Shown here: positions 4,869-25,477 of the stretch, in pieces
Numbering within the stretch: the stretch's first letter is position 1
How the letters are laid out: each line of letters opens with the position of its first letter
Virus record (IMG/VR): IMGVR_UViG_3300027896_000011
Location: 103,998 to 167,997 of that record
Reading direction: 5' to 3' (one strand)
Length of the DNA: 64,000 bases
Source: a virus
Notes under the pieces: model-generated
What the model saw: the letters and a program-made list of their open reading frames with translations, nothing else
Told to the model about the DNA's origin: nothing
Databases searched by the model: none
Program-made: the position numbers and the translations under genes

Positions 4869-4876
4869 GGTATAAG
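4869..4876 (+). promoter_or_regulatory. GGTATAAG promoter element of the Cas7-like gene and array
   Basis: The same motif lies upstream of many genes in the window on the matching strand. Confidence 0.6.
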
Positions 4877-4941
4877 TATAAAAGTAGTAAGGATATTCAA
4901 TTATGAAAGACCTCAACTACGTTTAGACCAAGGAGAGTGAC

Positions 4942-5604
4942 ATGATCAAAGTGGACGTTAAAACAATTGATGTAATAATTCAAGGCAAGCCTGGAAGCCC
5001 ATTAGTTATCCATCAGTTCGGAGAAAAGGTAAAAGAAGAGATACGAAGAAAGCAACAGAAGAAGGCTAAAGCTAAGAAAGATGATCGCCACCCAGAACAA
5101 GAATTTCTAGACGCTCGATACATCAATGATAAAGGACAAGAGTGTGCGCCGATAACAGCATTGAAAAAGTGTATGGTAGCAGCTGGAACGGCTATGGATA
5201 ATCTGACTAAGGTAGCTATTCGGCAGGCATTGTTTGTAATGCCACCAGAAGATACTGCCTCATGGTTGGTGCCGATAAAGACATTGGATGGTAAAGATGC
5301 GGTTGGAGTTATGCGTGAAGACGCTGTGACAATTGGAATTAACACTCGAGGATTAGCCTATCGACCGTGTTATGATCAGTGGCAATTGAAGGTACGGGTA
5401 GAGTATAATCCCAGATTGATATCGAAAGACCAGTTGGAGAGTTTAATAGCGCATGCTGGGTGGGGAGTTGGGTTATGTGAGGGTAGGCCAGAGAGGACGA
5501 GTGCCTTAGGGTGGGGGAGGTTTGATGTAGTCAGTGTTGAAGCTGTTTCAGATGTTCCACCTGGTGGGGTAGAGCATAAGAATAAGATAGAGATTGCGGC
5601 ATAG
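4942..5604 (+). CDS. stand-alone Cas7/RAMP-superfamily RNA-binding protein (Vipr-like)
   Basis: RAMP hallmarks: N-terminal strand IDVIIQG..SPLVIH, P..ALKKCM helix, YRP.Y.QW strand, C-terminal Gly-rich loop AGWGVGLCEGRP...GWGRFDV; RBS AAGGAG. Confidence 0.75.
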   Translation: MIKVDVKTIDVIIQGKPGSPLVIHQFGEKVKEEIRRKQQKKAKAKKDDRHPEQEFLDARYINDKGQECAPITALKKCMVAAGTAMDNLTKVAIRQALFVMPPEDTASWLVPIKTLDGKDAVGVMREDAVTIGINTRGLAYRPCYDQWQLKVRVEYNPRLISKDQLESLIAHAGWGVGLCEGRPERTSALGWGRFDVVSVEAVSDVPPGGVEHKNKIEIAA

Positions 5605-5611
5605 AATAAAA

Positions 5612-6215
5612 GGTATGGCAGGTACGATTGGGTGCTGAGCAGTAATGTGTTGTATTGTTAGGTAAGGCAGGAGAGGTGAAGTGCAGTATTAAGTGGTCGA
5701 GTAAAATTTGGTAAGGCAGGAGAGGTGAGGTCTAGTGTTAAGTGGTCGAGTCTGATAAGGTGATGTGAGACAGGTGAGGTATAGTGTTAAGTGGTCGAGT
5801 CTGATAAGGTTTAGTGAGGCAGGAGTGGTGGGGAGCGATTAAGTGATGTGAGGTCGAGTGAGGCAGGAAAGGTAAAGTCGGGTTTTGTGTTTTCCAGTTG
5901 AGTAAGATTAGGCAGGACTGGTGCGATTGTGTGAGGTATGATCAAGTGATATAAGGTTTGGCAGGAAAGGTGAGATAGAGTCAGATAATGTGTTGTATTG
6001 TTAGGTAAGGCAGGACTGGTGTTATCTAGTGAGATGGAGCATTATGAGGTATGGTTTAGTGCTATAAGGTTTGGCAGGACTGGCGAAGTGAAGTTTTGTG
6101 AGGTACGGTTAAGTAAGGCAGGAATGGTTTAGTGGCGTGGGGTGTGATCTTTGAGATGTAAGATTTGGCAGGTGGAGTGAGGTCCAGTAATATTTAGTGA
6201 AGTGAACCTAGGTAA
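5612..6215 (+). ncRNA. pentamer-periodic guide-like RNA array: 12 units of GGCA+(DRT-NN)8-12
   Basis: GGCAGG (one GACAGG) at 5617,5666,5715,5769,5818,5862,5911,5960,6009,6073,6117,6167. Spacings are 49,49,54,49,44,49,49,49,64,44,50, i.e. 4+5n except one +1 insertion. No ORF >=60 aa. Confidence 0.85.
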
Positions 6216-6220
6216 GGGAA

Positions 6221-6266
6221 TAGGTGTTGATTAAAACCAATTGGTTTTAATCAACACCTATTTTTA
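6221..6266 (+). terminator. perfect palindromic intrinsic terminator closing the array
   Basis: taggtgttgattaaaacc-aatt-ggttttaatcaacaccta followed by a T-run. Confidence 0.85.
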
Positions 6267-6360
6267 TTTAACCCCCTTCCGGCAAATAAGGAGGATAATT
6301 GAGGTATAAGAAACATATGTGAACTTACTCATATATCTTTTGTGTAGTAGAAAGGATAAT

Positions 6361-6897
6361 ATGCCAAAGGGTGATACCAGAGTCTCTCGAGGGTTTAAAC
6401 CCGACCTGTGTGTTCAATGTAGAACTGGGTTAAGACCCAATCAGATTAAGCTATTCGACCCGAAATGTGAGGGTTGCTATCTCAAAAAGAAAAATGGTCT
6501 ACGAACTGGAACTGAACCAATTCCAAAAAGAAGACTCGGAGAGAAGTTCATAGACTATACAAAATTGAAGAAACAAAGAGACGCATTAGCTAGAGCAAAA
6601 AACCCAATAAAGGAGAGGACCATGTTTACAACATTGATACTATCAGCAATTCTATCGGTAACCCCGGCAAATGATGAAGAGTTAAGGTATGGCAATCCAT
6701 TCAACTCAATAACGGTATCGGCGTTCTATATTAATCCGTTTGAAACAACGGAAGAGAGATTAACTAAATTAGAGAAAGAGCTCATTAAGGATATGCCTTT
6801 GTCAGAGACAGAACGTATTGAAATCTATTATCAGGGTATAGCTGAGCAAATAATCTCAGAATTCATTGATACTACAGCAACCTTAGTGAAGTTTTGA
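6361..6897 (+). CDS. hypothetical protein: Zn-finger N-terminus, internal start at 6622 with a signal peptide
   Basis: CVQC/CEGC; internal RBS AAGGAG plus ATG giving MFTTLILSAILS. Confidence 0.6.
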   Translation: MPKGDTRVSRGFKPDLCVQCRTGLRPNQIKLFDPKCEGCYLKKKNGLRTGTEPIPKRRLGEKFIDYTKLKKQRDALARAKNPIKERTMFTTLILSAILSVTPANDEELRYGNPFNSITVSAFYINPFETTEERLTKLEKELIKDMPLSETERIEIYYQGIAEQIISEFIDTTATLVKF

Positions 6898-9294: not shown

Positions 9295-10680
9295 ATGAAG
9301 ATAGACAGTGTCAGATTTCAAGCATTTGCTACTAATAGTAGTTCTGTTCATACTCCTTTTATCCGGACTGATAAAAAGCCGGTAGATTATTTGTTAAGTG
9401 AGGGGTATGAGTTCGGTTGGCAACCATTCATAGCGGCTACTTCTGAAGCGAAGAAGATGTACGCAGCTATGATGTTACAAGAGAATACACGATATTTGGG
9501 TAAGGACATTCAGGAGGCAGTACTTAGGCAGTGGGTAGGACTTGTTCCAGGAGAAGATGATTATATAGACCACCACTCAGTAATAACCCTACCTCGTACA
9601 TTCAAAGGGGAACAAATATCTAAACAATACTTTATGGATTATTTTAAATGGCTTATGCGCCCAGAGATAGCTATTCAGGGGGGCAATGATGACGGTGATG
9701 GTTGTGAAGAGCTTCCTGGGAAACCAGTAGATTTTCGTATTCCAAAATCTGGTTATTTTAATTGCCGGAAAGATGCAAAAGGGTTTTATACTTTATTCAA
9801 TCCGGAAGATGGAACTAAGATACGTATGTCTTTTGATGACAATGTAGATATGAGTAAGTCTACTAATCCGGAACTAGTAGATCTTAAGATCACCGATAGA
9901 TGTCCAAACGGCTGTTCCTATTGCTACCAGAATAGTAAGCCAAATGGTGAACATGCTGCTCGTGATTTGGTGACTACTATATTAGATGTATTAGCTAAGC
10001 TGGAAGTATTTGAAGTGGCATTCGGTGGCGGAGAACCAACAGAACATCCAGACTTTTGGCAGTTTGTTGTCCATGCCCATCGGTTAGGCATCAAACCTAA
10101 TTTTAGTACCCGTAATTTACGATGGCTAGATAATGCATGGAACTTACAGACGTTTAAAAAATGTTGTGGAGCTTTTGCATACTCTGTCGACTCTGTTGGG
10201 GGCGTTCGTACACTCATTAGGGCCATGCATAAATACGAGCTGGAGGATATGGTAACCGTTCAATATATTCCTGAAACAGAAGATGCTGAAATGCTAAAAG
10301 ATGTTATCATCGCTGCTACTGATTACGGCATACCGATTACTTTATTAGGTTTGAAGACAACAGGTCGTGGAAAACTATATACAGCATGTCGTAGTAGTCG
10401 CGCTGGGGTTACAGACGATGATGTAATAGCCGCAGTTAAAGACCATTGGAACATCGGCATAGACACCGCCTTCGCCAATAAATACCAAAAAGCAATTGAA
10501 GAATTAGGTGCAAGCCATTGGAGTTATAATATAAAAGAAGGCGCTCACTCCATGTATATTGATGCGGTCGCAGAACTCACAGGAAAATCTTCGTATTGCG
10601 AAGACCCTTGCCCATTAATAGTATATAACACCATCGAAAACACAGCAAAGCTCATTACTGAAGCTTTTAAAGGTTACTAA
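9295..10680 (+). CDS. radical SAM protein with an N-terminal TNSSS-type phage domain
   Basis: CPNGCSYC (CxxxCxxC), GGGEPTEHP, and FATNSSS at the N-terminus. Confidence 0.85.
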   Translation: MKIDSVRFQAFATNSSSVHTPFIRTDKKPVDYLLSEGYEFGWQPFIAATSEAKKMYAAMMLQENTRYLGKDIQEAVLRQWVGLVPGEDDYIDHHSVITLPRTFKGEQISKQYFMDYFKWLMRPEIAIQGGNDDGDGCEELPGKPVDFRIPKSGYFNCRKDAKGFYTLFNPEDGTKIRMSFDDNVDMSKSTNPELVDLKITDRCPNGCSYCYQNSKPNGEHAARDLVTTILDVLAKLEVFEVAFGGGEPTEHPDFWQFVVHAHRLGIKPNFSTRNLRWLDNAWNLQTFKKCCGAFAYSVDSVGGVRTLIRAMHKYELEDMVTVQYIPETEDAEMLKDVIIAATDYGIPITLLGLKTTGRGKLYTACRSSRAGVTDDDVIAAVKDHWNIGIDTAFANKYQKAIEELGASHWSYNIKEGAHSMYIDAVAELTGKSSYCEDPCPLIVYNTIENTAKLITEAFKGY

Positions 10681-14272: not shown

Positions 14273-14353
14273 CCGCTAGAACAGATATGGTATCGACGGG
14301 CGCTGTAAACGCCTTGCCTTCGGGCACAGGGGGTTCGATTCCCTCCTAGCGGA
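14273..14353 (+). tRNA. tRNA-Tyr(GTA)
   Basis: ccgctag/ctagcgg acceptor; loop ctGTAaa; long variable arm. Confidence 0.85.
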
Positions 14354-14357
14354 CTAT

Positions 14358-14429
14358 GCTGCTCTAACTCAATGGAAGAGGGCCGTCCCTTTAAGTCGGT
14401 GGTTGTGGGTTCGACTCCCACGGGCAGTA
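14358..14429 (+). tRNA. tRNA-Lys(TTT), C33
   Basis: Cloverleaf; loop ccTTTaa. Confidence 0.75.
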
Positions 14430-14460
14430 CAAAAAGATTGACCTGAACTGAAAGGAGAAA

Positions 14461-14835
14461 ATGTCGTATAAAGACCCAGAACATCAACGAGCGTATGCAA
14501 GAAGATGGGTAGCTGATAGGCGTAATGAGTGGTTTAGTAATAAGTGTTGCGTACATTGCGGTTCTAAAGAGTCTTTACAACTAGACCACATTGACCCGTC
14601 ACAAAAAGTAAGTCATAAAATATGGTCTTGGTCCCTTGGGCGAAGAGAAGTAGAGATTGCTAAGTGTCAGGTTTTATGCGAAAGGTGCCATAAGATAAAA
14701 ACACTAGAAGCCCACGTAGCAAAAAGAAAGCACGGAACCATGACTATGCGGAACAATGGCTGTCATTGCGATGAGTGCCGAAGATTTTGGACAGAGTATA
14801 TGAGAGAGTATAGAAGTAAGAGTCGTAAGCTTTGA
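14461..14835 (+). CDS. HNH endonuclease
   Basis: CVHCG..LQLDHIDP...CQVLCERCHKIKT. Confidence 0.85.
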   Translation: MSYKDPEHQRAYARRWVADRRNEWFSNKCCVHCGSKESLQLDHIDPSQKVSHKIWSWSLGRREVEIAKCQVLCERCHKIKTLEAHVAKRKHGTMTMRNNGCHCDECRRFWTEYMREYRSKSRKL

Positions 14836-14891
14836 CGGTGAAGCACAGGTCTCTTAAACCTGCTAACTAGCTTCGAGTGCTAGACGGCTCA
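14820..14891 (+). tRNA. tRNA-Lys(CTT)
   Basis: caggt-ctCTTaa-acctg; gagtcgt/acggctc. Confidence 0.8.
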
Positions 14892-14969
14892 CGAACGAAG
14901 GTCGCTCCTTCGGTTATGTGAAAAGAGAATAGTAAACAATGCGGCGGGTGAAACCACACCCGTCTTTAT

Positions 14970-15042
14970 GCCCCGAAAGCTCTCATGGGATGAGCGCTGC
15001 CCTGAAGAGGTAGAGGGTCCAGATCGTTACTGGAGCGGGGCA
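14970..15042 (+). tRNA. tRNA-Phe(GAA), atypical T-loop
   Basis: ctgcc-ctGAAga-ggtag. Confidence 0.7.
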
Positions 15043-15044
15043 CA

Positions 15045-15211
15045 ACAGAACACCTCCATAAGAACTTAGCAGATGGAAAGTTGACCATCTTTGACGCCCT
15101 GAATTAACAGGAGACGAAAACAGGAACCTAGGCCCTGTAAACTCGTCAAGGCAGCGTGTACACGACTGCAAAGGTAGGCTAACGCTGGAGATATGCCAGT
15201 AGGTGTTCTGT
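15045..15211 (+). ncRNA. unidentified structured RNA
   Basis: 11-bp closing stem acagaacacct/aggtgttctgt enclosing several hairpins. Confidence 0.55.
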
Positions 15212-15375
15212 ATTATCTCTTAGATCACTGCCCGTTGTTGAAAGACATCGATGGTCTATTGCCGGTATGGGAAAGTGGGCTAGTTAACTTCCCGGCACGG
15301 AATGGCTCTCTGTAGGTGACCTAAAGCAAGGGACTGTGAGCCAAGCTTGACACCCCGGAGAGACGGGGGAATTAT

Positions 15376-15447
15376 TGGGGATTAGCACAGTGGTTTAGTG
15401 TAGCGGTCTCTGACACCGTTGACCAAGGTTCGACTCCTTGATCCCAG
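15376..15447 (+). tRNA. tRNA-Gln(CTG)
   Basis: gcggt-ctCTGac-accgt; canonical T arm. Confidence 0.8.
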
Positions 15448-15451
15448 TTAT

Positions 15452-15524
15452 TCCGGTGTGACCTAACGGGATAAGGTATAAGACTTTGACTCTTGGAATA
15501 TTGGTTCAACTCCAGTCACCGGAA
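15452..15524 (+). tRNA. tRNA-Gln(TTG)
   Basis: taaga-ctTTGac-tcttg; tccggtg/caccgga. Confidence 0.85.
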
Positions 15525-15539
15525 CTAGAAAAAGATTAT

Positions 15540-15625
15540 GCAGGGCTGTAGCATGATGCTACTAGTAGGGTGCTCCGTGCACGGGGTCCTATGGTCTCAC
15601 AAGGTAAGAGTCCTTGGCACCTGCA
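15540..15625 (+). ncRNA. tRNA-like RNA with an extended central arm
   Basis: Acceptor-, D- and T-like arms present, but no 7-nt anticodon loop. Confidence 0.45.
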
Positions 15626-15724
15626 CCTTTATATTTCGACACCTTATTTTGTACTCCTTGTTCAAAATAGGCATAAGGTCAGGTTGGTCCCTTTTCCTGA
15701 GTCGATAAAGAAGGGACATCTATT

Positions 15725-15797
15725 GGAGCTGTAGTTTAATCAGTAAAACATTCGCTTGATAAGCGGAAGACAGTTGGGGCAGAGCCAATCAGCTCTA
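15725..15797 (+). tRNA. tRNA-Ile(GAT)
   Basis: ttcgc-ttGATaa-gcgga; atypical T-loop ggcagag. Confidence 0.8.
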
Positions 15798-15807
15798 CTA
15801 AGTTTAT

Positions 15808-15881
15808 GGTGGTTATGGTGTAGCGGCTCTGCACGCCTGTCTGTGAAACAGGAGGTTCGAGATCAACACTCGATAATCACC
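15808..15881 (+). tRNA. tRNA-His(GTG)
   Basis: cctgt-ctGTGaa-acagg; G-1/C73. Confidence 0.85.
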
Positions 15882-15885
15882 CAAG

Positions 15886-16518
15886 ATGAGGAATAAAATT
15901 CCAATATACGTTTATTACCACATAGCGCAGATGAATAACTGGCGGGAGATATATCAAGAACAGGTTGTCTTTTTATTGAACTCGGGGCTGTATGATCTTG
16001 TAGATGAGATTTGTATAGGTGTGCTAGGCAGTGATGCCTTACCGATTCTTCCGCCCATGTTCAAGATGCTTTTTCAACATAGTGACGTGACTTTGGCAGA
16101 GATTCCAACTTTAGAGTCATTACGAGAAAGAGCAATGGTGGAAGACTTTAATGTTTTGTACTTCCATACGAAAGGAGTATCACACCCTGATACTGACTAT
16201 GATTTCATGCGGAAGTGGCGGAAGTACATGGAGGGGTATTGCATTGGAAAGTGGAAAGAGTGTATTACGCATCTTAAAAGGTTTGATACTGTAGGGTGTG
16301 AGTATCATGCAGCCCCGTTTAAGCATTTCAGTGGTAATTTCTGGTGGAGTAAAGCTTCTTACCTTCGTACGCTTCCAAGATTGAAAGATGTACCTCTACA
16401 TGGGTTTGCTGAATCCCGGATGAAAGCAGAGATATGGGTCGGCACTAATCCAAGGGTGAAGATAAAGTGTTTGAGTACGGTTAACGACAGGTCTTTTCCA
16501 CTAGAAACTGGAGAATAA
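15886..16518 (+). CDS. putative glycosyltransferase-like viral protein
   Basis: YFHTKG and HFSGNFWW motifs. Confidence 0.6.
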   Translation: MRNKIPIYVYYHIAQMNNWREIYQEQVVFLLNSGLYDLVDEICIGVLGSDALPILPPMFKMLFQHSDVTLAEIPTLESLRERAMVEDFNVLYFHTKGVSHPDTDYDFMRKWRKYMEGYCIGKWKECITHLKRFDTVGCEYHAAPFKHFSGNFWWSKASYLRTLPRLKDVPLHGFAESRMKAEIWVGTNPRVKIKCLSTVNDRSFPLETGE

Positions 16519-16523
16519 ATAGA

Positions 16524-16656
16524 ATGCTGTAATAACTTCAAGTGACTAAAAGCAAATAGGTGGATACCACGTGTACTTCTGTCATGCGAGTATACGTCCT
16601 TTCGGTCATCAGCCTTGAGTTGCCTATTTTCTCTGGGGGCTGGAAGATTACAGCAT
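16524..16656 (+). ncRNA. long hairpin RNA with an internal bubble
   Basis: atgctgtaat/attacagcat outer stem; aaatagg/cctattt inner stem. Confidence 0.5.
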
Positions 16657-16684
16657 CCTATTTATTCTCCGGAAAATATAATAA

Positions 16685-16756
16685 CTGGGTGTAGGGTAAT
16701 GGTTACCCACTTGCCCTGGGAGCAAGTCTATGCAGGTTCAACTCCTGTCGCCCAGA
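16685..16756 (+). tRNA. tRNA-Pro(TGG), C33
   Basis: cttgc-ccTGGga-gcaag. Confidence 0.8.
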
Positions 16757-16766
16757 CTAATACAAG

Positions 16767-16838
16767 GGGGACGTAGTGATAACGATAGCACTCCACGTTT
16801 GCACCGTGGAAGTCGGAGTTTGATTCTCCGCGTCTCCA
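16767..16838 (+). tRNA. tRNA-Ala(TGC)
   Basis: ccacg-ttTGCac-cgtgg; G3:U70. Confidence 0.9.
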
Positions 16839-16841
16839 CTT

Positions 16842-16936
16842 AGATTGCTCGTGAGCTCACCTGGAGGAAGTCCAATTCCTTTACCAGGTATGCGGTCAGC
16901 CGGTGTAAATTGGACTCAGGCTGGTACAAGCAATCT
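16842..16936 (+). ncRNA. three-way-junction RNA with complementary loops
   Basis: agattgct/agcaatct closing stem; loops agtccaat and attggact. Confidence 0.55.
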
Positions 16937-16981
16937 TTATTTAACGCCGGAAACAAAAGAAGAACAAAGAAAGGTAGGCTA

Positions 16982-17221
16982 ATGGCTAACGGAGAAAACG
17001 TGTGTCCAGTGTGTAAGGGGTCTTTGAAGAAGTCGGATGGTAGAGATTGTACTAATTGTGGCGGGCAATATATGTGGGGAAGTCCTGTTGGTGTTGTTAG
17101 ATTACGAAAAGATGGTACCCCATGTACTCATGAATATACCGGAGCGGTATTAGGTAATTGTTTGCGCGGATACTCTTGTATTCATTGCGGGGACGCATAT
17201 GAAATAGATTCTGGAGATTAG
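16982..17221 (+). CDS. Cys-rich Zn-finger phage protein
   Basis: CPVC, CTNC, CTH, CIHC; C-terminal IDSGD. Confidence 0.7.
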   Translation: MANGENVCPVCKGSLKKSDGRDCTNCGGQYMWGSPVGVVRLRKDGTPCTHEYTGAVLGNCLRGYSCIHCGDAYEIDSGD

Positions 17222-17342
17222 GAGCTGTCAGTCAATACAGCACGGTGGCGTATTGCGAGCCGTTATTATCGTGATACTTACTCCGGAGAAAGTTCCGAGG
17301 GATTACCCGGTCGCCTGGGCTTATGTCCGAAGGACTGGGATT

Positions 17343-17414
17343 GGGTTGTTCATCTAGCGGTAAGGATGTCAGTCTCCAAAATTGATCACGGAAGTTCGAG
17401 TCTTCCACAACCCG
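17343..17414 (+). tRNA. tRNA-Trp(CCA)
   Basis: tcagt-ctCCAaa-attga. Confidence 0.85.
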
Positions 17415-17503
17415 CAATCCCCCTCGCCTGGGAACTGGCTCCCCAGGTTCTCTGTGGCGGCATATATTTATTAGAACCGTCGGAGATTGGAAGAGGGGGT
17501 GTT

Positions 17504-17586
17504 GGATGGTGAATCCGTCAGGGACGAAACCTGTCTTGAAAACAGTGTGAGCCTTATGGCTTGAGTTTCGAGTACTCCGCCATCCT
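17504..17586 (+). tRNA. tRNA-Ser(TGA)
   Basis: Loop ctTGAaa; long variable arm. Confidence 0.75.
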
Positions 17587-17616
17587 CGAGTGTAAATAGA
17601 AAGGAAAACACGAAAT

Positions 17617-18138
17617 ATGTGGCAAAAGATTAGAAGGCATCTACCGAACTGGCTAAAACAAACACTCTATTGGTTGAGGACACGTACGTACAACAAATAC
17701 CATCTACTTGATTGCCGGAGTAAACAAAATGGATATACATGGGGTTGGCAAGACATATGTAGCCGGATAGTATTTGCTAATATGAATATGCTTAAGCTAT
17801 ATGTTGAGCACGAAGCAGATCATATTGATTGGACATCTGATCCAGAACACATACACGCCCGAGCAGAGATGGAAGAGTTATATCAGTGGTGGATGAGAGG
17901 TAGAAAGATTGAACATGATGCATACGATGCATTAATAAACAAAACCTATGGGTTTGAAGGCTGCACTAAGTTAGTATCAGCTAAGGATGGTTTGCAGGGT
18001 CTAGTATTTACTAAGCGTGGAGATTCTGCGTGGGAGGCAGATTGTGATGCTTGTAGTGAGGCGGAAAAAGCATTGACTCAAAAAGATGAGGATATGCTGA
18101 TCAGACTCATTAAGATCAAAAATTATTTGTGGTCATAA
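17617..18138 (+). CDS. conserved phage hypothetical protein
   Basis: 173-aa ORF; ELYQWW and LIRLIKIKNYLWS motifs. Confidence 0.75.
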   Translation: MWQKIRRHLPNWLKQTLYWLRTRTYNKYHLLDCRSKQNGYTWGWQDICSRIVFANMNMLKLYVEHEADHIDWTSDPEHIHARAEMEELYQWWMRGRKIEHDAYDALINKTYGFEGCTKLVSAKDGLQGLVFTKRGDSAWEADCDACSEAEKALTQKDEDMLIRLIKIKNYLWS

Positions 18139-18164
18139 GGCATAGCTGGGCTTCCCCCAGCTAC

Positions 18165-18252
18165 GGAGAGTTGCCGGAGTTTGGTAAGCGGGTCAGGTTG
18201 CTAACCTGAAGCCAACCGAAAGGTTGCAAATGTTCGATTCATTTACTCTCTT
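18165..18252 (+). tRNA. tRNA-Ser(GCT)
   Basis: tcagg-ttGCTaa-cctga; long variable arm. Confidence 0.85.
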
Positions 18253-18345
18253 CAACGGCTTCCCAGCCCTGCGTTGTGGCGGGGCCTCCCACCCTCTCAG
18301 AGGGATGGCAAAGTACACGCCGGGAAAATGGTAAGGGAAGTCTCT

Positions 18346-18416
18346 GGTTACGTCGGCAAGTGGTAAGCCTCCAGTCTGCAAAACTGGCATCGTTGGTTCA
18401 ATTCCAACCGTAACCT
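18346..18416 (+). tRNA. tRNA-Cys(GCA)
   Basis: ccagt-ctGCAaa-actgg; U73. Confidence 0.9.
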
Positions 18417-18430
18417 CGAGCCATACTTAT

Positions 18431-18502
18431 GAGAGAGTGGTGGAAATCTTGGTCCATAACAGGTCGCTCCTGTGATGTCGGTATCAAATCCGACCTCTCT
18501 CT
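18431..18502 (+). ncRNA. tRNA-like RNA with a 5-nt loop in place of the anticodon loop
   Basis: gagagag/ctctctc acceptor; T arm gtcgg/ccgac; acagg-tcgct-cctgt. Confidence 0.55.
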
Positions 18503-18526
18503 TCAATTTGAACAAAAGGAGGAACG

Positions 18527-20041
18527 GTGCACCTTACTGCATGTATGCTCGTCCGGAATGAAGAAAGTATAATAGAGGAGAACATTTTCTTTCATAGAAG
18601 GATGGGTGTTGATCGGTTCTTAATTATGAACCACATCTCTACTGACAATACTCTTTCTATTCTTAACCGGCTTAAAGAAGAGGGCGTAGATATTGTTGTA
18701 TACGAACAAAATAGCCCAAAGTATCTTCAAGCAGAGTGGATGTCTTTTCTCTCTCAAGAAGCACATCGACTTGGTACTGATTGGGTAATTATGATTGATG
18801 CTGATGAATTCTTTTTGCCAAAGAAGCCAACCATTAAGGATTACTTAGCGTCAGTCCCGGAATGTATAGATGTTATCCAGTGTCTTTGGTATAACAACTT
18901 TCCGGTTAAAGGAGTAACACCATTCTATTTGAATACCTATTTCGTTCCCTATCTTTACATGTATAAAGTCATTATGAGGGCAAGTCCCAATAGTGGGGTG
19001 GTTATGGGTAATCATGCTCCTACACATACTGATAGATGTGTAAGAGAACATGATGCACTTAGGGTGATGCATTTTCAGCATCGGGATAAGGCCAGTGTAT
19101 ATGGTAAATATGTTTTAGGAGGGGAGGCTCTGGTAAATTCTAATTTACCTGCTGGTGTAGGTTCTCATTGGAGAGACGGACTTGAAGCTTTTCGGAAAGG
19201 TAAGTTTGAAGAGTTTACAGATTACTTTTTCCATTCTGAGGAGGAGGTACAGGCAGTACCTAGAGTTATTGAGGATGGAACATTAAAGAGGTTGTTTCAG
19301 CATAGAAGCAATCATACTACTAAGTGGTTAGAGATCACATCAATGGTAGGTTGTACCAATAGATGTACGTATTGCCCACAGTCTTTATTTACGGCTAAGT
19401 ACCATAAGATGTATTTAGGGACAGCTTGTACTATGAGCCCAGAGGGACTTTCTTCTATACTAGATAATGTAGACCCTATCACTACTGCTATACATTTTTC
19501 AGGGTTTAATGAGATATTTGCTCATCCTGAAGGGCATGAGCTTATTGCCTTTACCTATGAGCGGGGATTTGATATAGCGCTGTTTTCTACTCTAGTAGGG
19601 TTAACTGAAGATAAGGTTGCGTTTCTAGCTGATAGAGGGGTGGAGTTTTCTTGGGTCAGGCTTCATGAGTTTGATGGACCTAAGTTCAATAAAGAGGATT
19701 TTGAGGCTAAGGCTAAGTTGTTAAGAGAGTCGGTACGTATAAACCGCTTTGAGTGTCAACGTGTAGAACATCCTATCTCTAGAGGTGGTTCCTTATGGGA
19801 GCCCGGATATAACAATAGAGGAATTACGTGTTCAAGGTTTGATTGTAATGTGGTATTACCTAATGGAGAGGTGTACCTCTGTTGTTCTGATTGGGGCCTT
19901 CGTCATTATATAGGTAACCTTCTTACAGATCACTATGACGGTGACTTATTCACGTCTGTTCGTAATTCTTTGAGAGAACAAGGAAGAACTCCAGGTACAG
20001 ATATGTTGTGTAAGCATTGTGAGATGGCAGTGCCTATTTGA
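18527..20041 (+). CDS. GT2-type glycosyltransferase fused to a radical SAM/SPASM domain
   Basis: MLVRNEE...IDADEF (GT2); GCTNRCTYC; VLPNGEVYLCCSDW...CKHCE. Confidence 0.85.
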   Translation: MHLTACMLVRNEESIIEENIFFHRRMGVDRFLIMNHISTDNTLSILNRLKEEGVDIVVYEQNSPKYLQAEWMSFLSQEAHRLGTDWVIMIDADEFFLPKKPTIKDYLASVPECIDVIQCLWYNNFPVKGVTPFYLNTYFVPYLYMYKVIMRASPNSGVVMGNHAPTHTDRCVREHDALRVMHFQHRDKASVYGKYVLGGEALVNSNLPAGVGSHWRDGLEAFRKGKFEEFTDYFFHSEEEVQAVPRVIEDGTLKRLFQHRSNHTTKWLEITSMVGCTNRCTYCPQSLFTAKYHKMYLGTACTMSPEGLSSILDNVDPITTAIHFSGFNEIFAHPEGHELIAFTYERGFDIALFSTLVGLTEDKVAFLADRGVEFSWVRLHEFDGPKFNKEDFEAKAKLLRESVRINRFECQRVEHPISRGGSLWEPGYNNRGITCSRFDCNVVLPNGEVYLCCSDWGLRHYIGNLLTDHYDGDLFTSVRNSLREQGRTPGTDMLCKHCEMAVPI

Positions 20042-20103
20042 TTTAGATAAACCCTTCTATAGAGGGGTCTGGACAGAGGAAGCTAGCGCCTGTTGTCCAG
20101 TTT

Positions 20104-20175
20104 GCAAAGATGGCAGAATGGTTATGCATCACCTTGCCAAGGTGAATTATGCGGGTTCGAATCCCGTTCTTTGCT
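20104..20175 (+). tRNA. tRNA-Gly(GCC)
   Basis: tcacc-ttGCCaa-ggtga. Confidence 0.9.
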
Positions 20176-20253
20176 CCCGCCACGAGAAATCGTGGATAGT
20201 AGATGCTCCTTCCTACGAGGCCGAAATGGCGAAAGTTATAATGGGAGCAATTT

Positions 20254-20324
20254 GCACCATTGGCCTAGAAGCCGGGCGTCAGCCTTCCAAGCTGAATAGA
20301 CGAGGGCAGTACTCGTATGGTGCT
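20254..20324 (+). tRNA. tRNA-Gly(TCC)
   Basis: tcagc-ctTCCaa-gctga; atypical T-loop. Confidence 0.8.
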
Positions 20325-20421
20325 CTATCTGGATGCTCTTGTTGTTTACGTGTGTGGGCCTTTCAATAAGTTTGTACCTTATTGCTGGGTATTATAAACG
20401 GTCACAGCAAGAGCAATACGT

Positions 20422-20492
20422 GCCGTCATATGTTAATGGTAGACGGTTTCCTCGGTAAGGAAGCGGCGGCAGTTCAATTCTGTCTGACGGCT
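20422..20492 (+). tRNA. tRNA-Thr(GGT), C33
   Basis: tttcc-tcGGTaa-ggaag. Confidence 0.8.
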
Positions 20493-20506
20493 CAAAGGAG
20501 AAACAA

Positions 20507-21610
20507 ATGCTTGAATACGAAGGGAAATATGCCAAGTGTAAAGTAATGACGGATAATATAGAAGAGACGGCTGTAACTCAAATTTATGGATTCCTTAATT
20601 CTCCGGCATTTGAAGGGGCTATTATACGTATAATGCCTGACGTTCATGCAGGTGCCGGAGCAGTAGTAGGATTTACTAGTACGTTAACGGATAAAGTAAT
20701 ACCGAATGTTGTTGGAGTCGATATAGGTTGCGGAATAGAAAGTTATCGTTTAGGTAAGGAGGAAGTGAATTTCTTGGCATTAGATAATTTTATTCGTGCA
20801 ACTATACCTAGTGGATTTAACGTGCATGAAAAGGTTATCCCGCATAGGTACGATGGTTTTGTACAACTTGAGGAGATTACCGAACGAACTGAGCAAGATT
20901 ATGGCAGAGTTTTACGCTCTCTAGGTACTCTTGGGGGAGGTAACCATTTCATAGAATTAGGTGTAGACCAATTTGATGACAAGTGGCTAACTATCCATAC
21001 GGGGTCTAGGAATTTTGGACTCAAGGTCGCCACCTACCATCAGCATATAGCTGAGCTGGCTGTTGGTAAACTAAATGGGCTAGCTTGGTTAGAGGGAACT
21101 ATAGCAAAACAATATCTTTCCGATATGAAAGTGGCTCAAGAGTACGCAGCCCGTAATAGAGAGTATATTGTCGATAGAATTCTACAAGGGTTCTTTGGTA
21201 AGAGTATTGGTTACGTAACTAAAGTAGGAAGTGTGCATAACTACATTGACTTCACGGACAATGTGATACGAAAAGGTGCTATAGCGGCACATGAGCATCA
21301 GTTACTCGTTATCCCCTGGAATATGAGGGATGGGTTAATTATTGGCCGGGGCAAGGGAAATGGGGATTGGAATATGTCTGCCCCTCATGGTGCTGGAAGA
21401 ATAATGGGTAGAGGCGCAGCAAAGAAGACTATTCAGTTAGAGGACTTCCAAGAGTCTATGAAGGGTATTTGGTCTAGTTGCATAAGTAAGGACACATTAG
21501 ACGAGTCACCTATGGTATACAAAAATTCGGAGATGATAAAAGAAGCAATAGCTGATACTGTTGAGATCACAAACGTGGTAAAACCTCTTTACAACTTTAA
21601 GGCAAGTTAA
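20507..21610 (+). CDS. rtcB: RtcB RNA ligase
   Basis: MPDVHAG, VGVDIGCG, LGTLGGGNHFIE, HTGSR, HNY, SAPHGAGR, DESPMVYK. Confidence 0.95.
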   Translation: MLEYEGKYAKCKVMTDNIEETAVTQIYGFLNSPAFEGAIIRIMPDVHAGAGAVVGFTSTLTDKVIPNVVGVDIGCGIESYRLGKEEVNFLALDNFIRATIPSGFNVHEKVIPHRYDGFVQLEEITERTEQDYGRVLRSLGTLGGGNHFIELGVDQFDDKWLTIHTGSRNFGLKVATYHQHIAELAVGKLNGLAWLEGTIAKQYLSDMKVAQEYAARNREYIVDRILQGFFGKSIGYVTKVGSVHNYIDFTDNVIRKGAIAAHEHQLLVIPWNMRDGLIIGRGKGNGDWNMSAPHGAGRIMGRGAAKKTIQLEDFQESMKGIWSSCISKDTLDESPMVYKNSEMIKEAIADTVEITNVVKPLYNFKAS

Positions 21611-21619
21611 GGAACAAAA

Positions 21620-21991
21620 ATGGAGTATGAAAAGACCATACTTAACTACCCAAAATTTCTGAAGAAGATTGGTGTATATATTAAGGTACAGACATATGAT
21701 CGAGACGGAGGGCACAAACACCCCAGGCATAGAATAGAGCTACGGGGAGCTCCGCCTAAGATTACAGAGGAAGCGTTGGCGTTTGAGATGCCTTGTGTAA
21801 CGTGTGGTCGAACCATTAGCCCGTTTAGACTCTGTAAGGGTAACAAAAATGGGTTTATTGAATCCCGGCGAAGTAGTACGGCTGGTGTATACTTCGCGGC
21901 TACCTGTCCACTTAATACATCAATAGGCTGCTCTCGTTCTAAACAAGCGGCGGAAGAATATGAAAGAGTAGTTAAAAAGTATCTAGGATGA
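21620..21991 (+). CDS. hypothetical protein
   Basis: ORF with RBS. Confidence 0.6.
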   Translation: MEYEKTILNYPKFLKKIGVYIKVQTYDRDGGHKHPRHRIELRGAPPKITEEALAFEMPCVTCGRTISPFRLCKGNKNGFIESRRSSTAGVYFAATCPLNTSIGCSRSKQAAEEYERVVKKYLG

Positions 21992-22029
21992 TACAGATGT
22001 GCGTACCCGTGCGTATCTTCACGGGTAAT

Positions 22030-22101
22030 GCTTCTAAAACATTGATGGTGATGTGCCAGTTTCGTAAACTGGAAAATGCCGTTCAAGTCGGCATAGAAGC
22101 T
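22030..22101 (+). tRNA. tRNA-Thr(CGT)
   Basis: ccagt-ttCGTaa-actgg. Confidence 0.85.
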
Positions 22102-22102
22102 C

Positions 22103-22174
22103 TGCGGGTTAGACTAGCGGAACAGTCTCAAGGCTCATACCCTTGCCAGCGCAGTTCAACTCTGCGACCCGCAA
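22103..22174 (+). tRNA. tRNA-Met(CAT), initiator-like
   Basis: caagg-ctCATac-ccttg; tgcgggt/acccgca. Confidence 0.8.
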
Positions 22175-22175
22175 C

Positions 22176-22247
22176 GCTCCTCAAGCATTGGTGGCGATGC
22201 ACGGGTTTTGTAAACCCGAGAGAACAGTTCAACTCTGTTGTGGAGCT
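22176..22247 (+). tRNA. tRNA-Thr(TGT)
   Basis: cgggt-ttTGTaa-acccg. Confidence 0.85.
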
Positions 22248-22251
22248 CTAT

Positions 22252-22323
22252 TCTCGGGTGGCTGACTAGCAAAGCAGCGCACTGTTAATGCGTCATATGC
22301 AGGAGCGTAACCTGCCCCGAGAG
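22252..22323 (+). tRNA. tRNA-Asn(GTT)
   Basis: gcgca-ctGTTaa-tgcgt. Confidence 0.8.
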
Positions 22324-22328
22324 CTTAT

Positions 22329-22403
22329 GCGCTCATAGCTCAGTTGGATCAGAGCAATTGATTTCTAATCAATGGGTCGGGAGTTCGAATCTCTCTGAGC
22401 GTA
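22329..22403 (+). tRNA. tRNA-Arg(TCT)
   Basis: attga-ttTCTaa-tcaat; canonical. Confidence 0.9.
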
Positions 22404-22438
22404 CAATAGAAATAAAAGTAATAAACTTAAGGAGGCAT

Positions 22439-22600
22439 ATGAAGCCGGAAAACGTAATAGATCAAATACACAGTATTATAAAAGAGTGTATTGGTTTTGA
22501 TGTGAAAGATGCCTACGTAAAGGACGGCATTATATACGCAATTATTAACTGTCCATTGCAGTACATCACACTGACGTTTACTTTATCAGAGGATCAATGA
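22439..22600 (+). CDS. hypothetical protein
   Basis: RBS AAGGAGG. Confidence 0.55.
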   Translation: MKPENVIDQIHSIIKECIGFDVKDAYVKDGIIYAIINCPLQYITLTFTLSEDQ

Positions 22601-22788
22601 CAAAACGAGAAATACTAGATCGCATGCGTGCGGTGCTCCCATATTGTGGGGCCTATGATAATGTCAAGACAGATCTGCATAAAATGGCCGAAGTAATAGC
22701 TGAACTATTTGATATGCAAAATGATCGTATTGATGATTTAGAGATAGAGGTGGTGCGACAGAAGGCGAAGCAAAAAGGGGAGACATGA
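22597..22788 (+). CDS. hypothetical protein
   Basis: ATGA-coupled. Confidence 0.6.
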   Translation: MTKREILDRMRAVLPYCGAYDNVKTDLHKMAEVIAELFDMQNDRIDDLEIEVVRQKAKQKGET

Positions 22789-22985
22789 ACAAGAATCACA
22801 CACCACAAATAGCAACCCCGGCAAAGCAGAAGCCGCTAGTGGTCAGGGCTGTTACGTGCGGCATATGTCAGTCACCTGCAGATCGCTACGAATGGGGCTT
22901 CGAGTGTCAAGCAAACCCCAACCATTGCGGGGATCTATACTGTGGTATATTTACTGACCTCACTTATCCGGAGAAAGGTAAGTGA
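22785..22985 (+). CDS. hypothetical Zn-finger protein
   Basis: ATGA-coupled; CGIC. Confidence 0.6.
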   Translation: MNKNHTPQIATPAKQKPLVVRAVTCGICQSPADRYEWGFECQANPNHCGDLYCGIFTDLTYPEKGK

Positions 22986-23018
22986 GAAAACCATGAGGAC
23001 GGCGAAGAAGGTGCGGAC

Positions 23019-23219
23019 ATGGTGACGAAATCTAATATCGCGATTATTGCAATGCAAGTAGGAGAGACGGACCCATTTAGCGGTGCTGCCTTGGAGAAAG
23101 CGGTAATCATGATGAGTTTTTGGTGGGGGAACATGCTGACCGGTGTAACCCTGACCCGCGCTGAAGCAGTAGCAGTGGTAACGCGATTGAGAGAGGCACT
23201 CGAAGAACTGGACAGGTGA
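23019..23219 (+). CDS. hypothetical protein
   Basis: ORF in operon. Confidence 0.5.
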   Translation: MVTKSNIAIIAMQVGETDPFSGAALEKAVIMMSFWWGNMLTGVTLTRAEAVAVVTRLREALEELDR

Positions 23220-23223
23220 AACC

Positions 23224-23568
23224 ATGGATGACACAGAATGGGTCAAGTTGAGATTCGGCAATGACTGGGGCCGCAGATACCTGGCCGTTGAGCCGTTGGA
23301 TACTGGGTGTGCCCACTTTAAGCGCGGCATCGTGGCAAAGGAGGGGGAATCAGTCCTGATACGTTGGCCAGACGGCAACGTGGAACATGCGGTCATCACA
23401 AAGATTATGGAGTTGGCGCCGACAAGCCGCGAAGATGTGGGAAGCAGCTATCCCGAAGTGGTCGTGAATCTGCATGGGGGCCGGATACAGATCCCGCTTA
23501 CCCAGGTGGAGGTGCAGCGCAGTTGGGTAGATGCACACACTCCTGGGCGGATGCAGGTGAAGCCGTGA
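23224..23568 (+). CDS. hypothetical protein
   Basis: ORF in operon. Confidence 0.6.
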   Translation: MDDTEWVKLRFGNDWGRRYLAVEPLDTGCAHFKRGIVAKEGESVLIRWPDGNVEHAVITKIMELAPTSREDVGSSYPEVVVNLHGGRIQIPLTQVEVQRSWVDAHTPGRMQVKP

Positions 23569-23786
23569 AGTGCGCAATTTGTCAGCAAGAGGTAGAGGGG
23601 TATTGGCAGGAGTGTGAAGTGAGTGATGGCCAAGAGTTGCATACCAGTTGCATCGACGGCCGACTACCAGAGCGCGCCGATGTGATCGCATATCTGCGTG
23701 CTTGGCCTATGCGAGCCGGAAGCGGGCTAGCAATTTCAATCGAACGCGGTGATCACGTAGGCGCAGCGGGAAAGGAGAAGCCATGA
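23565..23786 (+). CDS. MKCAIC...IERGDH family protein
   Basis: GTG start; paralog of 822-1055. Confidence 0.75.
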   Translation: MKCAICQQEVEGYWQECEVSDGQELHTSCIDGRLPERADVIAYLRAWPMRAGSGLAISIERGDHVGAAGKEKP

Positions 23787-24022
23787 CGTTCAATAGCTCG
23801 GACGCAGAAATGGACCGGCAAGACGACGCGCACGAACACGGCCGCATAGAAGGCTACCTGGAAGGCCGCAAGAAGGAACGCCAGCTTGTGGTGTATTGGG
23901 TACGCAGGTGGGTAGGCGACGTGGATCCAATAGTGATAGCCCGCATGATCGAAAAGGGCGAGCACGCGGGCGAGGGATTCGGCGATTGCTTCCCAGGGTC
24001 GAAACTGAGGATGAAGCCATGA
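23783..24022 (+). CDS. hypothetical protein with the IEKGEH motif
   Basis: ATGA-coupled; ER..V...IEKGEHAG. Confidence 0.65.
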   Translation: MTFNSSDAEMDRQDDAHEHGRIEGYLEGRKKERQLVVYWVRRWVGDVDPIVIARMIEKGEHAGEGFGDCFPGSKLRMKP

Positions 24023-24225
24023 AGGCGGAGATCACTTTGACAGCAGCCAAGTGTCAAGGGAATAACCATGTATATGGCGAAACCTTCCGGTGTAGGTGTG
24101 GAAAGTATCGCTTGAGCTGGGAAGGGCCTAATGCTCCTTGGTCAATTCAAGCGCTTGAGGAATCATTAGACGGACAGCGACAATGCGTTTGGGTAACCAT
24201 AGGACAGCAGGAGGCAAAGCTATGA
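24019..24225 (+). CDS. hypothetical protein
   Basis: ATGA-coupled. Confidence 0.55.
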   Translation: MKAEITLTAAKCQGNNHVYGETFRCRCGKYRLSWEGPNAPWSIQALEESLDGQRQCVWVTIGQQEAKL

Positions 24226-24449
24226 CCCGCGACACCCGCACCGCCCGCAAGGCAGACGCATTACTGAAAATGACCGCAGCACACTCCGACAGCGCTGAGC
24301 GCGCGAAGATTGCAGCGCCATGTACTCACGATAGAGAACCTCCGGTACGTAGCGATTGGGGGCAGTTGTGTTGCTCTAGGTGCGGACGCTATTTGTTTGA
24401 CGATGATTCCATCTGCAGAGACGTAGTTGACGCCGTGACGGGGGAGTGA
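24222..24449 (+). CDS. hypothetical Zn-finger protein
   Basis: ATGA-coupled; CTH...CSRCG. Confidence 0.55.
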   Translation: MTRDTRTARKADALLKMTAAHSDSAERAKIAAPCTHDREPPVRSDWGQLCCSRCGRYLFDDDSICRDVVDAVTGE

Positions 24450-24453
24450 AGTC

Positions 24454-24645
24454 ATGAAGCGCGCGGACTTCGAGGCGATGCAGAAGCGACTGGCTGATGA
24501 GATTGCCCTAAGCGAGAACGAGCTGCGTTTTCTCAGCAAAGAAATCGACCGCGCTGTGAGGAAGGCGCGGAAGGAAGAGCGAATGCGAGCTTGCAAGTAT
24601 TTGACAGGCGTGAGCCGAGACGCCCGGTTGAAGGATTATCGGTGA
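24454..24645 (+). CDS. hypothetical protein
   Basis: RBS GGGGAG. Confidence 0.55.
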   Translation: MKRADFEAMQKRLADEIALSENELRFLSKEIDRAVRKARKEERMRACKYLTGVSRDARLKDYR

Positions 24646-24668
24646 GCCATGAAAACGAAAGGGAACCA

Positions 24669-24998
24669 ATGACCAAACAGAAGACCGCCAAGAACTACGA
24701 CCCGAAGCCCGGAACCTATGTGATCGTGCGCTGCCGCGATGCTGGCGTCCACGCCGGGGAGTTCGTCGCGCACCCCGCCGATAGAACCGTGGTCCTCAAA
24801 AACTCGCGCCGACTGTGGTACTGGAAAGGGGCCGCGTCGCTGTCAGAGTTGGCAGTGTACGGCGCGAAGGATGTCAGCGCGTGCCGTTTCGGTGTGCTCA
24901 TCACTCCGCCGCTCCCACTGCTGGACGCGTGTGAAATCATCGTGTGCCAACCTGCCGCGAAGGGCATGATCGTGCAGTGCCCGGAATGGCGCGCGTGA
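24669..24998 (+). CDS. DUF6948-like phage protein
   Basis: YVIVRC..AGVHAG...L.NSRRLWYWKGAASLSELA. Confidence 0.8.
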   Translation: MTKQKTAKNYDPKPGTYVIVRCRDAGVHAGEFVAHPADRTVVLKNSRRLWYWKGAASLSELAVYGAKDVSACRFGVLITPPLPLLDACEIIVCQPAAKGMIVQCPEWRA

Positions 24999-25273
24999 TT
25001 CCGGTTGCGTTCCCAAGCGCTGCTACAGTGGCGCGATCCGGTGACGGTGCCGGTTACGGTGCCGGTTACGGTGCCGGTGACGGTGCCGGTTACGGTGCCG
25101 GTGACGGTTACGGTGCCGGTTACGGTGCCGGTGACGGTTACGGTGCCGGTTACGGTTACGGTGCCGGTGACGGTTACGGTGCCGGTTACGGTGCCGGTTA
25201 CGGTGCCGGTGACGGTTACGGTGCCGGTTACGGTGCCGGTTACGGTTACGATGCCGGTTACGGTTACGGTTAG
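24995..25273 (+). CDS. Gly-rich (GYG/GAG/GDG) repeat protein
   Basis: GTGA overlap with the DUF6948-like gene, a usual pairing; hexamer repeat in frame. Confidence 0.65.
   Translation: MIPVAFPSAATVARSGDGAGYGAGYGAGDGAGYGAGDGYGAGYGAGDGYGAGYGYGAGDGYGAGYGAGYGAGDGYGAGYGAGYGYDAGYGYG
25040..25270 (+). repeat. hexamer tandem repeat ggt-(gcc/tac/gac)
   Basis: 6-nt period encoding G-X dipeptides. Confidence 0.9.
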
Positions 25274-25468: not shown

Positions 25469-25477
25469 CATTTTTTA

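What the first reader, a model, noticed from the sequence alone, without database searches (positions are those of the whole stretch)
4869..6266. Candidate phage RNA-guided system: lone Cas7/RAMP-like gene plus a non-CRISPR pentamer-periodic guide array in one transcription unit
SEEN: a GGTATAAG promoter (4869) precedes a 220-aa ORF (4942-5604). Seven nt after its stop a ~600-nt non-coding, C-poor array begins, and a perfect palindromic terminator (6221-6260) closes it. The array parses into 12 units that start with GGCA (5617,5666,5715,5769[GACA],5818,5862,5911,5960,6009,6073,6117,6167). Unit lengths are 44/49/54/64 = 4+5n, with one unit of 50 carrying an extra T. Each unit is a string of pentamers made of a conserved triplet and a variable dinucleotide, e.g. 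unit 7: GGCA gga-CT ggt-GC gat-TG tgt-GA ggt-AT gat-CA agt-GA tat-AA ggt-TT. By hand count, 90 of 110 triplets are (G/A/T)(G/A)T, and 9 of the 20 exceptions are the GGA immediately after GGCA. KNOWN: the protein has RAMP/Cas7 (Csm3-like) hallmarks, including the C-terminal Gly-rich loop, and Cas7 proteins polymerise along guide RNA with fixed periodicity. No cas1/2/3/5/6/8/10 gene is in the window. INFERENCE: each unit is a guide RNA, possibly processed at GGCAGG. One protomer would bind each pentamer, holding the triplet and displaying the dinucleotide, so the target is read non-contiguously. With no nuclease nearby, the output would probably be binding or repression, e.g. against competing phages or host genes. 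This resembles my unverified recollection of reported VIPR-type systems (Cas7-like protein plus GGY/NN repeat RNA); the triplet here is more degenerate (DRT).
Basis: partly seen in the sequence, partly recalled or inferred. Interest (0 to 1): 0.97.

Follow-up and report, generated by a model that had tools for sequence, protein, structure and literature searches.

The report
Phage VIPR system with staggered guide array
A 168-kb uncultured phage carries a VIPR system, a recently described relative of CRISPR made of one small Cas7-like protein and an array of twelve guide RNAs built from 5-base repeats.

Summary

Of 34 homologous loci, 32 carry such a tract beside the gene. The two exceptions are contigs that end within 75 nt after the gene. 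All 29 tracts checked in the viral loci are G-rich on the gene strand. The same GGCAGG junction recurs at spacings of 4 mod 5 in 149 of 204 cases.

This fits the VIPR systems of two 2026 bioRxiv preprints, specifically the "staggered" array architecture and a YNNNG-like degenerate repeat. There is no conserved accessory gene, CRISPR array or cas gene.

The targets remain unknown. One guide (unit 7) matches exactly, in frame, a conserved motif of ORF6N anti-repressor genes in two Lachnospiraceae proviruses. This is a lead, not proof. Novelty: new member of a known kind.

The parts
4869..4876 (+). GGTATAAG promoter-like element upstream of vipr
   Evidence: 13 copies in the window against 2.9 expected. 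A second copy at 6303 precedes the next gene. Function as a promoter is inferred.
4931..4935 (+). Shine-Dalgarno AGGAG, 6 nt before the ATG
   Evidence: Read directly from the sequence.
4942..5604 (+). vipr gene: 220-aa minimal RAMP (Vipr family)
5605..6220 (+). Staggered vrRNA array of 12 units. Starts: 5617, 5666, 5715, 5769, 5818, 5862, 5911, 5960, 6009, 6073, 6117, 6167. Each unit is GGCA (GACA in unit 4) plus 8-12 D-G-T/NN pentamers.
   Evidence: No ORF longer than 44 aa. RNA not structured, z -0.26. No Rfam family.
5911..5959 (+). Unit 7, the only guide with a candidate natural target (an ORF6N anti-repressor motif)
   Evidence: Exact 18/18 xNN matches at L079:4218-4243 and L080:8888-8913.
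6219..6270 (+). Intrinsic terminator closing the unit (20-bp stem, 4-nt loop, T-run)

Best explanation
This is a VIPR (Viral Interference Programmable Repeat) system of an uncultured 168-187-kb, tRNA-rich phage.

The vipr gene (4942-5604) and the array (5605-6220) appear to form one transcription unit, from the GGTATAAG element to the hairpin terminator. By homology with the SUSP1 system, Vipr protomers should polymerise on the RNA, one per 5 nt. Each should sequester a (D)G-T triplet and display the two variable bases. Those bases pair with double-stranded DNA, skipping one target base per repeat, so each unit specifies a 23-35-bp gapped site and represses transcription there.

The array has the "staggered" architecture. 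Every 8-12 repeats, a four-base repeat (GGC-A) shifts the register by one base, which should end one filament and start the next. This gives 12 guides without tails, ribozymes or CRISPR-type repeats.

Shown here: protein homology and fold, array anatomy, the clade-wide gene-array association and its strand orientation. Inferred from the published relatives: RNA binding, DNA targeting, repression, and a role against competing mobile elements.
For: Protein:
- Family profile hits PDB 36pp 'SUSP1 Vipr protein' at E 3.8e-7. hhalign to the Suspvirus Vipr gives 94.6%, E 6.7e-8.
- Residues that contact RNA in SUSP1 map to residues invariant in this family: H17 to H24, R138 to R141 (YRP thumb), D177 to E180, R179 to R182.

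Array:
- Strong 5-nt periodicity, unique in the genome.
- 28 of 29 viral loci and 4 of 5 MAG loci that encode a homologue have a periodic tract abutting the gene. The two exceptions end 75 nt or less after the gene.
- All 29 viral-locus tracts are G-rich on the gene strand.
- GGCAGG junction spacings are 4 mod 5 in 149 of 204 cases across loci. This matches the paper's 1-nt-overlap staggered arrays.
- The RNA is unstructured.
- No self-target in the phage's own genome, as the paper's own-contig controls found for other VIPR clades.
- NN composition fits codon positions 1-2 best, consistent with the wobble-skip rule.
- No CRISPR array and no cas genes.
Against: - Only 32% of the triplets are canonical GGY, against about 82% in Suspvirus vrRNAs.
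- SUSP1 W178, which stacks on G2, is a glycine here, and the G-loop carries a 6-residue insertion.
- There is no 3' tail or pseudoknot and no conserved vap gene.
- No convincing natural target was found for 11 of 12 guides.
- Expression, RNP formation and the skip rule have not been tested for this clade. The paper confirmed only the ribozyme and single-vrRNA architectures by sRNA-seq, not staggered arrays.
Confidence: 0.9

Rival explanations
1. The locus is a decaying or inactive VIPR relic. The protein is intact, but the array has drifted under AT pressure and no longer loads or guides.
For: Canonical GGY in only 32% of repeats and G1 only 51% G. The closer homologues keep G1 at 0.7-1.0. Units 2-4, and units 1 and 8, share duplicated segments. 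No target for 11 of 12 guides.
Against: Positions 2 and 3 stay at 78% G and 81% T, and D-R-T is 79% against 17% expected. Eleven of 12 units keep the exact 4+5n length. All family-invariant residues are present. The promoter-like element, RBS and terminator are intact. The paper reports natural YNNNG and NNNNG variants and internal degeneracy in vrRNAs.
Confidence: 0.06
2. The complex targets RNA, as type III Csm3 backbones do, and not double-stranded DNA.
For: The closest solved folds in the library searched are Csm3, Cmr4 and type VII Cas7 subunits of RNA-targeting complexes.
Against: The characterised Vipr homologue binds dsDNA by triplex and R-loop formation. NN composition fits sense codons better than antisense ones. 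The only candidate target is sense to the mRNA, so the guide could pair with the template DNA strand but not with the transcript.
Confidence: 0.03
3. The periodic tract is unrelated to the protein, for example a satellite, a DNA-level binding array or a replication element.
For: No direct evidence of transcription or binding here.
Against: A tract lies next to the gene in 32 of 34 homologous loci from unrelated contigs, and all 29 tracts checked in the viral loci are G-rich on the gene strand. It is unique in the genome. Its repeat code matches that of experimentally verified vrRNAs.
Confidence: 0.01

Closest known systems
VIPR type II systems (Escherichia phage SUSP1 / Suspvirus; Pseudomonas fulva prophage), bioRxiv 10.64898/2026.04.26.720920 and .720927
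   Same: Homologous Vipr protein with a single RRM, a thumb (YRP) and a G-loop. Pentamer repeats made of a sequestered triplet and a variable dinucleotide. Phage-encoded, with no CRISPR array or cas genes. Guides sit beside the gene on the same strand. No self-targeting.
   Different: In SUSP-type loci each vrRNA is about 100 nt, with 9-16 GGY/NN repeats and a conserved ~40-nt 3' tail (pseudoknot). A vap1 gene follows vipr. Here 12 tail-less units of 8-12 repeats abut one another through a 4-nt GGCA junction. GGY is relaxed to D-G-T. No vap is conserved. W178 is replaced by Gly, and there is a 6-residue G-loop insertion.
VIPR 'staggered vrRNA arrays' and alternative repeat consensus (YNNNG), Fig. 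S18 and Methods of the discovery preprint
   Same: Adjacent vrRNAs overlap by 1 nt, which equals the 4+5n unit lengths here and in 149 of 204 junction spacings of related loci. A degenerate G1 with conserved G2 and Y3 equals YNNNG.
   Different: I could not see the figure or the type assignment, so identity with that clade is inferred from the legend text. That architecture was not among those the paper confirmed by sRNA-seq.
Class 1 CRISPR Cas7 backbones (Csm3/Cmr4, type III; Cas7 of types IV and VII)
   Different: Period of 5 nt with 3 bases sequestered, against 6 nt with 1 base flipped. No Cas5/6/8/10/11 partners, no repeat-spacer array and no adaptation genes. dsDNA binding through a gapped code.

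Membership tests
VIPR system | Protein homologous to characterised Vipr proteins | tested here: met
   Profile against PDB 36pp SUSP1 Vipr: E 3.8e-7. hhalign against Suspvirus Vipr: 94.6%, E 6.7e-8, 135 columns.
VIPR system | SUSP1 residues that hold the GGY triplet (H17, R138, D177, W178, R179) | tested here: met
   Four of five have invariant counterparts: H24, R141, E180 (conservative) and R182. W178 aligns to invariant G181, and a 6-residue insertion follows.
VIPR system | Intergenic tract of GGY/NN (or related) pentamer repeats next to vipr, on the same strand | tested here: met
   The consensus here is D-G-T/NN (YNNNG-like). Homologues have GG(C/T)NN. 32 of 34 loci carry a tract.
VIPR system | Roughly 9-16 repeats per vrRNA | tested here: met
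   8-12 full pentamers per unit plus the GGC-A junction repeat.
VIPR system (type II form) | Invariable ~40-nt 3' tail with hairpin or pseudoknot after each repeat tract | tested here: not met
   Units abut through a 4-nt junction, and there is no significant RNA structure. So this is not a type II-style array. It fits the staggered architecture.
VIPR system | vap accessory gene next to vipr (typical, with six vap families for seven types) | tested here: not met
   No ORF other than vipr is shared among 30 loci within about 3 kb. The downstream ORF 6361-6897 has no family above threshold. It lies after the terminator and has its own GGTATAAG element.
VIPR system | No CRISPR array or cas genes; located on a virus or provirus | tested here: met
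   No Cas1, no Pfam RAMP and no CRISPR-like repeats. The record is an IMG/VR virus, 89% complete.
VIPR system | vrRNA expressed and bound by Vipr; dsDNA recognised by the 1-nt skip rule; transcriptional repression | not testable with these tools
   Indirect evidence only: codon-1/2-like NN composition and one in-frame candidate target.
CRISPR-Cas type III | Cas10 and Cas5-type partners and a repeat-spacer array | tested here: not met
   No CRISPR-like array and no other RAMP in the genome.

The most novel reading that the evidence does not exclude
Two ideas remain open.

1. In this clade, guide boundaries may be set by a register shift alone. A single 4-nt repeat (GGC-A) would break the 5-nt protein filament, so one transcript yields 12 separately acting guide filaments. 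No tail, ribozyme, Cas6-like cut or other processing signal would be needed. The preprint inferred this architecture but did not verify it experimentally.

2. Because only codon positions 1-2 are read, a guide can be aimed at a conserved peptide motif and not at one DNA sequence. Unit 7 matches L-A-W-[D/E]-I-H-D-K-L of ORF6N anti-repressors in proviruses whose proteins are only 45% identical.
Probability: 0.3. Interest if true: 0.6.

Novelty: new member of a known kind. Interest (0 to 1): 0.38.

Why it matters
The locus shows that a VIPR system can be recognised from raw sequence alone. It adds a well-delimited example from a large, low-GC, tRNA-rich uncultured phage: one promoter-like element, one gene, 12 guides and one terminator.

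It is a compact test case for two open points in VIPR biology. The first is how staggered, tail-less arrays are divided into guides. The second is how much degeneracy the G1 position tolerates (G in only 51% of repeats here).

If the unit-7 lead holds, the wobble-skipping code would let a phage silence a whole family of diverged anti-repressor genes with one guide.

Tried and rejected
- Pfam and Rfam gave nothing for the protein or the array.
- Megablast of the locus and tblastn of a large neighbouring protein against cultured phages found no relatives.
- Own genome: no guide scored above shuffled guides under skip 0, 1, 2 or 3.
- Exact xNN searches in viral contigs: guides 9, 3, 12 and 4 gave no hit.
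- Guide 9 in metagenome contigs gave no hit. Its central 18-base seed gave 40 hits whose flanks matched at chance level: best 4 of 6 in 3 hits, with about 1.5 expected.
- Guide 1 gave one hit (L082). The skipped base there falls on codon position 1, so it is probably chance.
- Guide 7's third hit (L081) has no open frame on either strand within 300 nt of the site, so it looks non-coding; the fetched stretch has 30% GC. It is probably chance.
- On the two whole proviruses hit by guide 7, the other 11 guides were at background.
- Host inference failed. RtcB homologues carry no host names. The related record LR796294.1 is not held.
- The second contig with the same protein (L070) is identical, so guide turnover could not be studied.
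- DNA for the 74%-identical homologue's locus was not available.
- The supplementary figures and tables of the preprint are not held, so the VIPR type number could not be assigned.

Full report
**1. Observation**

The tract 5605-6220 has 7% C. Its lag-5 autocorrelation is 0.43 against about 0.26 background, with further peaks at 44, 49 and 54.

A sliding-window periodicity score finds this tract and nothing else in the 64-kb window and in the 168-kb genome. Runs of six or more D-R-T-NN pentamers occur only inside it, with 0-3 such runs in shuffled genomes.

The 12 units start where listed and are 4+5n nt long. The exception is unit 11, which has one extra T. Pentamer positions 1-3 are G .51, G .78 and T .81. 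Positions 4-5 are variable.

D-R-T holds for 88 of 111 triplets against 17% expected. GGA follows GGCA in 9 of 12 units. A 20-bp perfect hairpin plus a T-run closes the tract. GGTATAAG is enriched in the window, with 13 copies against 2.9 expected.

**2. The protein**

Pfam is silent. PHROGs gives only phrog_4652, of unknown function.

The family is very large. There are 687 hits among the 822 candidates scored in the 90%-clustered collection, and 2,020 representative clusters at E <= 1e-3. Almost all are unnamed.

The A1 profile hits one solved protein by sequence, PDB 36pp 'SUSP1 Vipr protein', at E 3.8e-7. I located the Suspvirus VIPR locus (L072). hhalign of A1 against its Vipr gives 94.6% probability and E 6.7e-8.

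SUSP1 residues that grip the GGY triplet map onto residues invariant in this family:
- H17 to H24, in a shared G-x-x-P-x-x-x-H motif.
- R138 to R141, in the YRP thumb.
- D177 to E180.
- R179 to R182.

W178 aligns to an invariant glycine, and a 6-residue insertion follows.

**3. The association**

Of 29 IMG/VR loci encoding a homologue (55-68% identity), 28 have a 5-nt periodic tract abutting the gene. Most are downstream, some are upstream, and two loci have both. The exception ends 75 nt after the gene.

Four of five MAG loci do too (Bryobacteraceae, Lentisphaeria, Methyloceanibacter, Verrucomicrobiota). The fifth contig ends 48 nt after the gene. All 29 viral-locus tracts are G-rich on the gene strand.

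The arrays of these higher-GC homologues are canonical GG(C/T)-NN. They carry the same GGCAGG junction, with spacings of 4 mod 5 in 149 of 204 cases and 0 mod 5 in 35, the latter being in-phase GGC-AG repeats.

My scan also lights up the experimentally verified Suspvirus vrRNA regions, which serves as a positive control.

**4. What it is**

These features match the VIPR systems of bioRxiv 10.64898/2026.04.26.720920. Those systems comprise a minimal RAMP and vrRNAs of alternating GGY/NN. They are mostly viral or proviral, and lack both a CRISPR array and cas genes.

The companion cryo-EM preprint shows three things. One protomer binds each repeat. The GGY triplet is sequestered by two adjacent protomers. 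The NN dinucleotide pairs with DNA while one target base per repeat is skipped. The output is transcriptional repression, and in nature it is aimed at competing phages and satellites.

The paper lists "staggered arrays with overlapping vrRNAs", in which neighbours overlap by 1 nt. That is arithmetically the same as the 4+5n units here: GGC-AG shares its last G with the next GG(A/T)-NN.

The paper also lists alternative repeat consensus forms, including YNNNG. That describes the T-NN-D-G repeat seen here.

No ORF besides vipr is shared among the loci within about 3 kb. The ORF after the terminator has no recognisable family. So this clade appears to lack a vap gene.

I could not see the supplementary figures, so I cannot give the type number.

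**5. Mechanism**

Shown: homology, fold, array anatomy, strand orientation and conservation of the architecture.

Inferred from the relatives:
- Co-transcription of gene and array from the GGTATAAG element to the terminator.
- Polymerisation of Vipr on each unit.
- Display of 8-12 dinucleotides, gapped pairing with dsDNA, and repression.

My own inference: the 4-nt junction breaks the 5-nt register and thereby delimits the guides. The array RNA has no more structure than shuffles (z -0.26), as expected for a protein-coated guide.

**6. Targets**

No guide matches the phage's own genome above shuffled controls under any skip rule. The preprint's own-contig controls for other VIPR clades likewise found no self-targeting.

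NN composition fits codon positions 1-2 in the sense orientation best. The scores are -3.80 bits per NN against -3.92 for genome dinucleotides and -4.14 for antisense. This is weak support for the wobble-skip rule.

Exact xNN searches:
- Guides 9, 3, 12 and 4 found nothing in viral contigs, and guide 9 found nothing in metagenome contigs.
- A guide-9 seed search gave only chance-level extensions.
- Guide 1 gave one out-of-frame hit.
- Guide 7 gave three hits.

Two of the guide-7 hits lie in frame and in sense within homologous ORF6N anti-repressor genes. The two proteins are 45% identical, and both hits fall on the peptide L-A-W-[D/E]-I-H-D-K-L. The genes sit on complete proviruses of Faecalicatena/Eubacterium and Blautia, with 43-44% GC against 42.5% for this phage.

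The homologous site scores 16/18 in C. difficile phage phiCD211 and 13/18 in a Bacillus phage. In the phiCD211 and phi3626 loci fetched, the anti-repressor gene sits beside a Cro/CI-type gene. This is the target class the preprint reports for the P. fulva clade.

Four cautions apply:
- About one chance hit is expected per 18-base pattern.
- The two hits are not independent, because they share one conserved motif.
- The other 11 guides are at background on both proviruses.
- The phage itself appears aquatic. It occurs in a sample that also yields virophages, and its nearest relative is an 'uncultured Caudovirales phage' record.

I rate this lead at about 0.3.

**7. Verdict**

The system is a new member of a published kind (VIPR). 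It combines the staggered array form, a relaxed D-G-T repeat and no accessory gene. It is not a new kind of system.

Noticed in passing
window 14273-27790: A cluster of 23 tRNA genes on the + strand, interleaved with small ORFs and an RtcB RNA ligase (20507-21610, phrog_1075 E 8e-122). This suggests a tRNA repair and supply module.
   Followed up: partly
window, 13 sites (e.g. 4553, 4869, 6303, 13837, 33393, 53935): GGTATAAG occurs 13 times against 2.9 expected.
   Followed up: partly
window 9295-10680: A 461-aa radical SAM protein (PF04055, phrog_16999) a few kb downstream of the VIPR locus.
   Followed up: no
window about 63470-64000 (genome 167470-167997), inside ORF 61297-63999: Repeated 20-mers at spacings that are multiples of 9 nt (36, 45, 81, 108). 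This indicates a coding tandem repeat in a protein of more than 900 aa at the contig end.
   Followed up: no
window 6264-6897: The ORF after the terminator (ATG 6361, 178 aa) has an N-terminal CxxC...CxxC motif and no family. Public gene calls keep only its last 91 aa (6622-6897), which leaves about 350 nt unassigned.
   Followed up: partly
locus of P0002 (74%-identical Vipr; JGI 3300075153; no DNA available): About 1.1 kb with no called gene follows the vipr homologue. Downstream genes include Tad2-like (PF11195) and a weak AcrVA2-like hit, so the system may sit in an anti-defence gene neighbourhood there.
   Followed up: no
L076:2951-5225 (Methyloceanibacter MAG contig): A very long periodic tract of about 2.3 kb follows the vipr homologue. 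It would hold several dozen guides.
   Followed up: no
L079:3870-4727 and L080:8383-9309: ORF6N anti-repressor genes of Lachnospiraceae proviruses share a conserved block (ILSERGYAKLIKIMDTDLAW[D/E]IHDKL). Its codon positions 1-2 match guide 7 exactly.
   Followed up: yes
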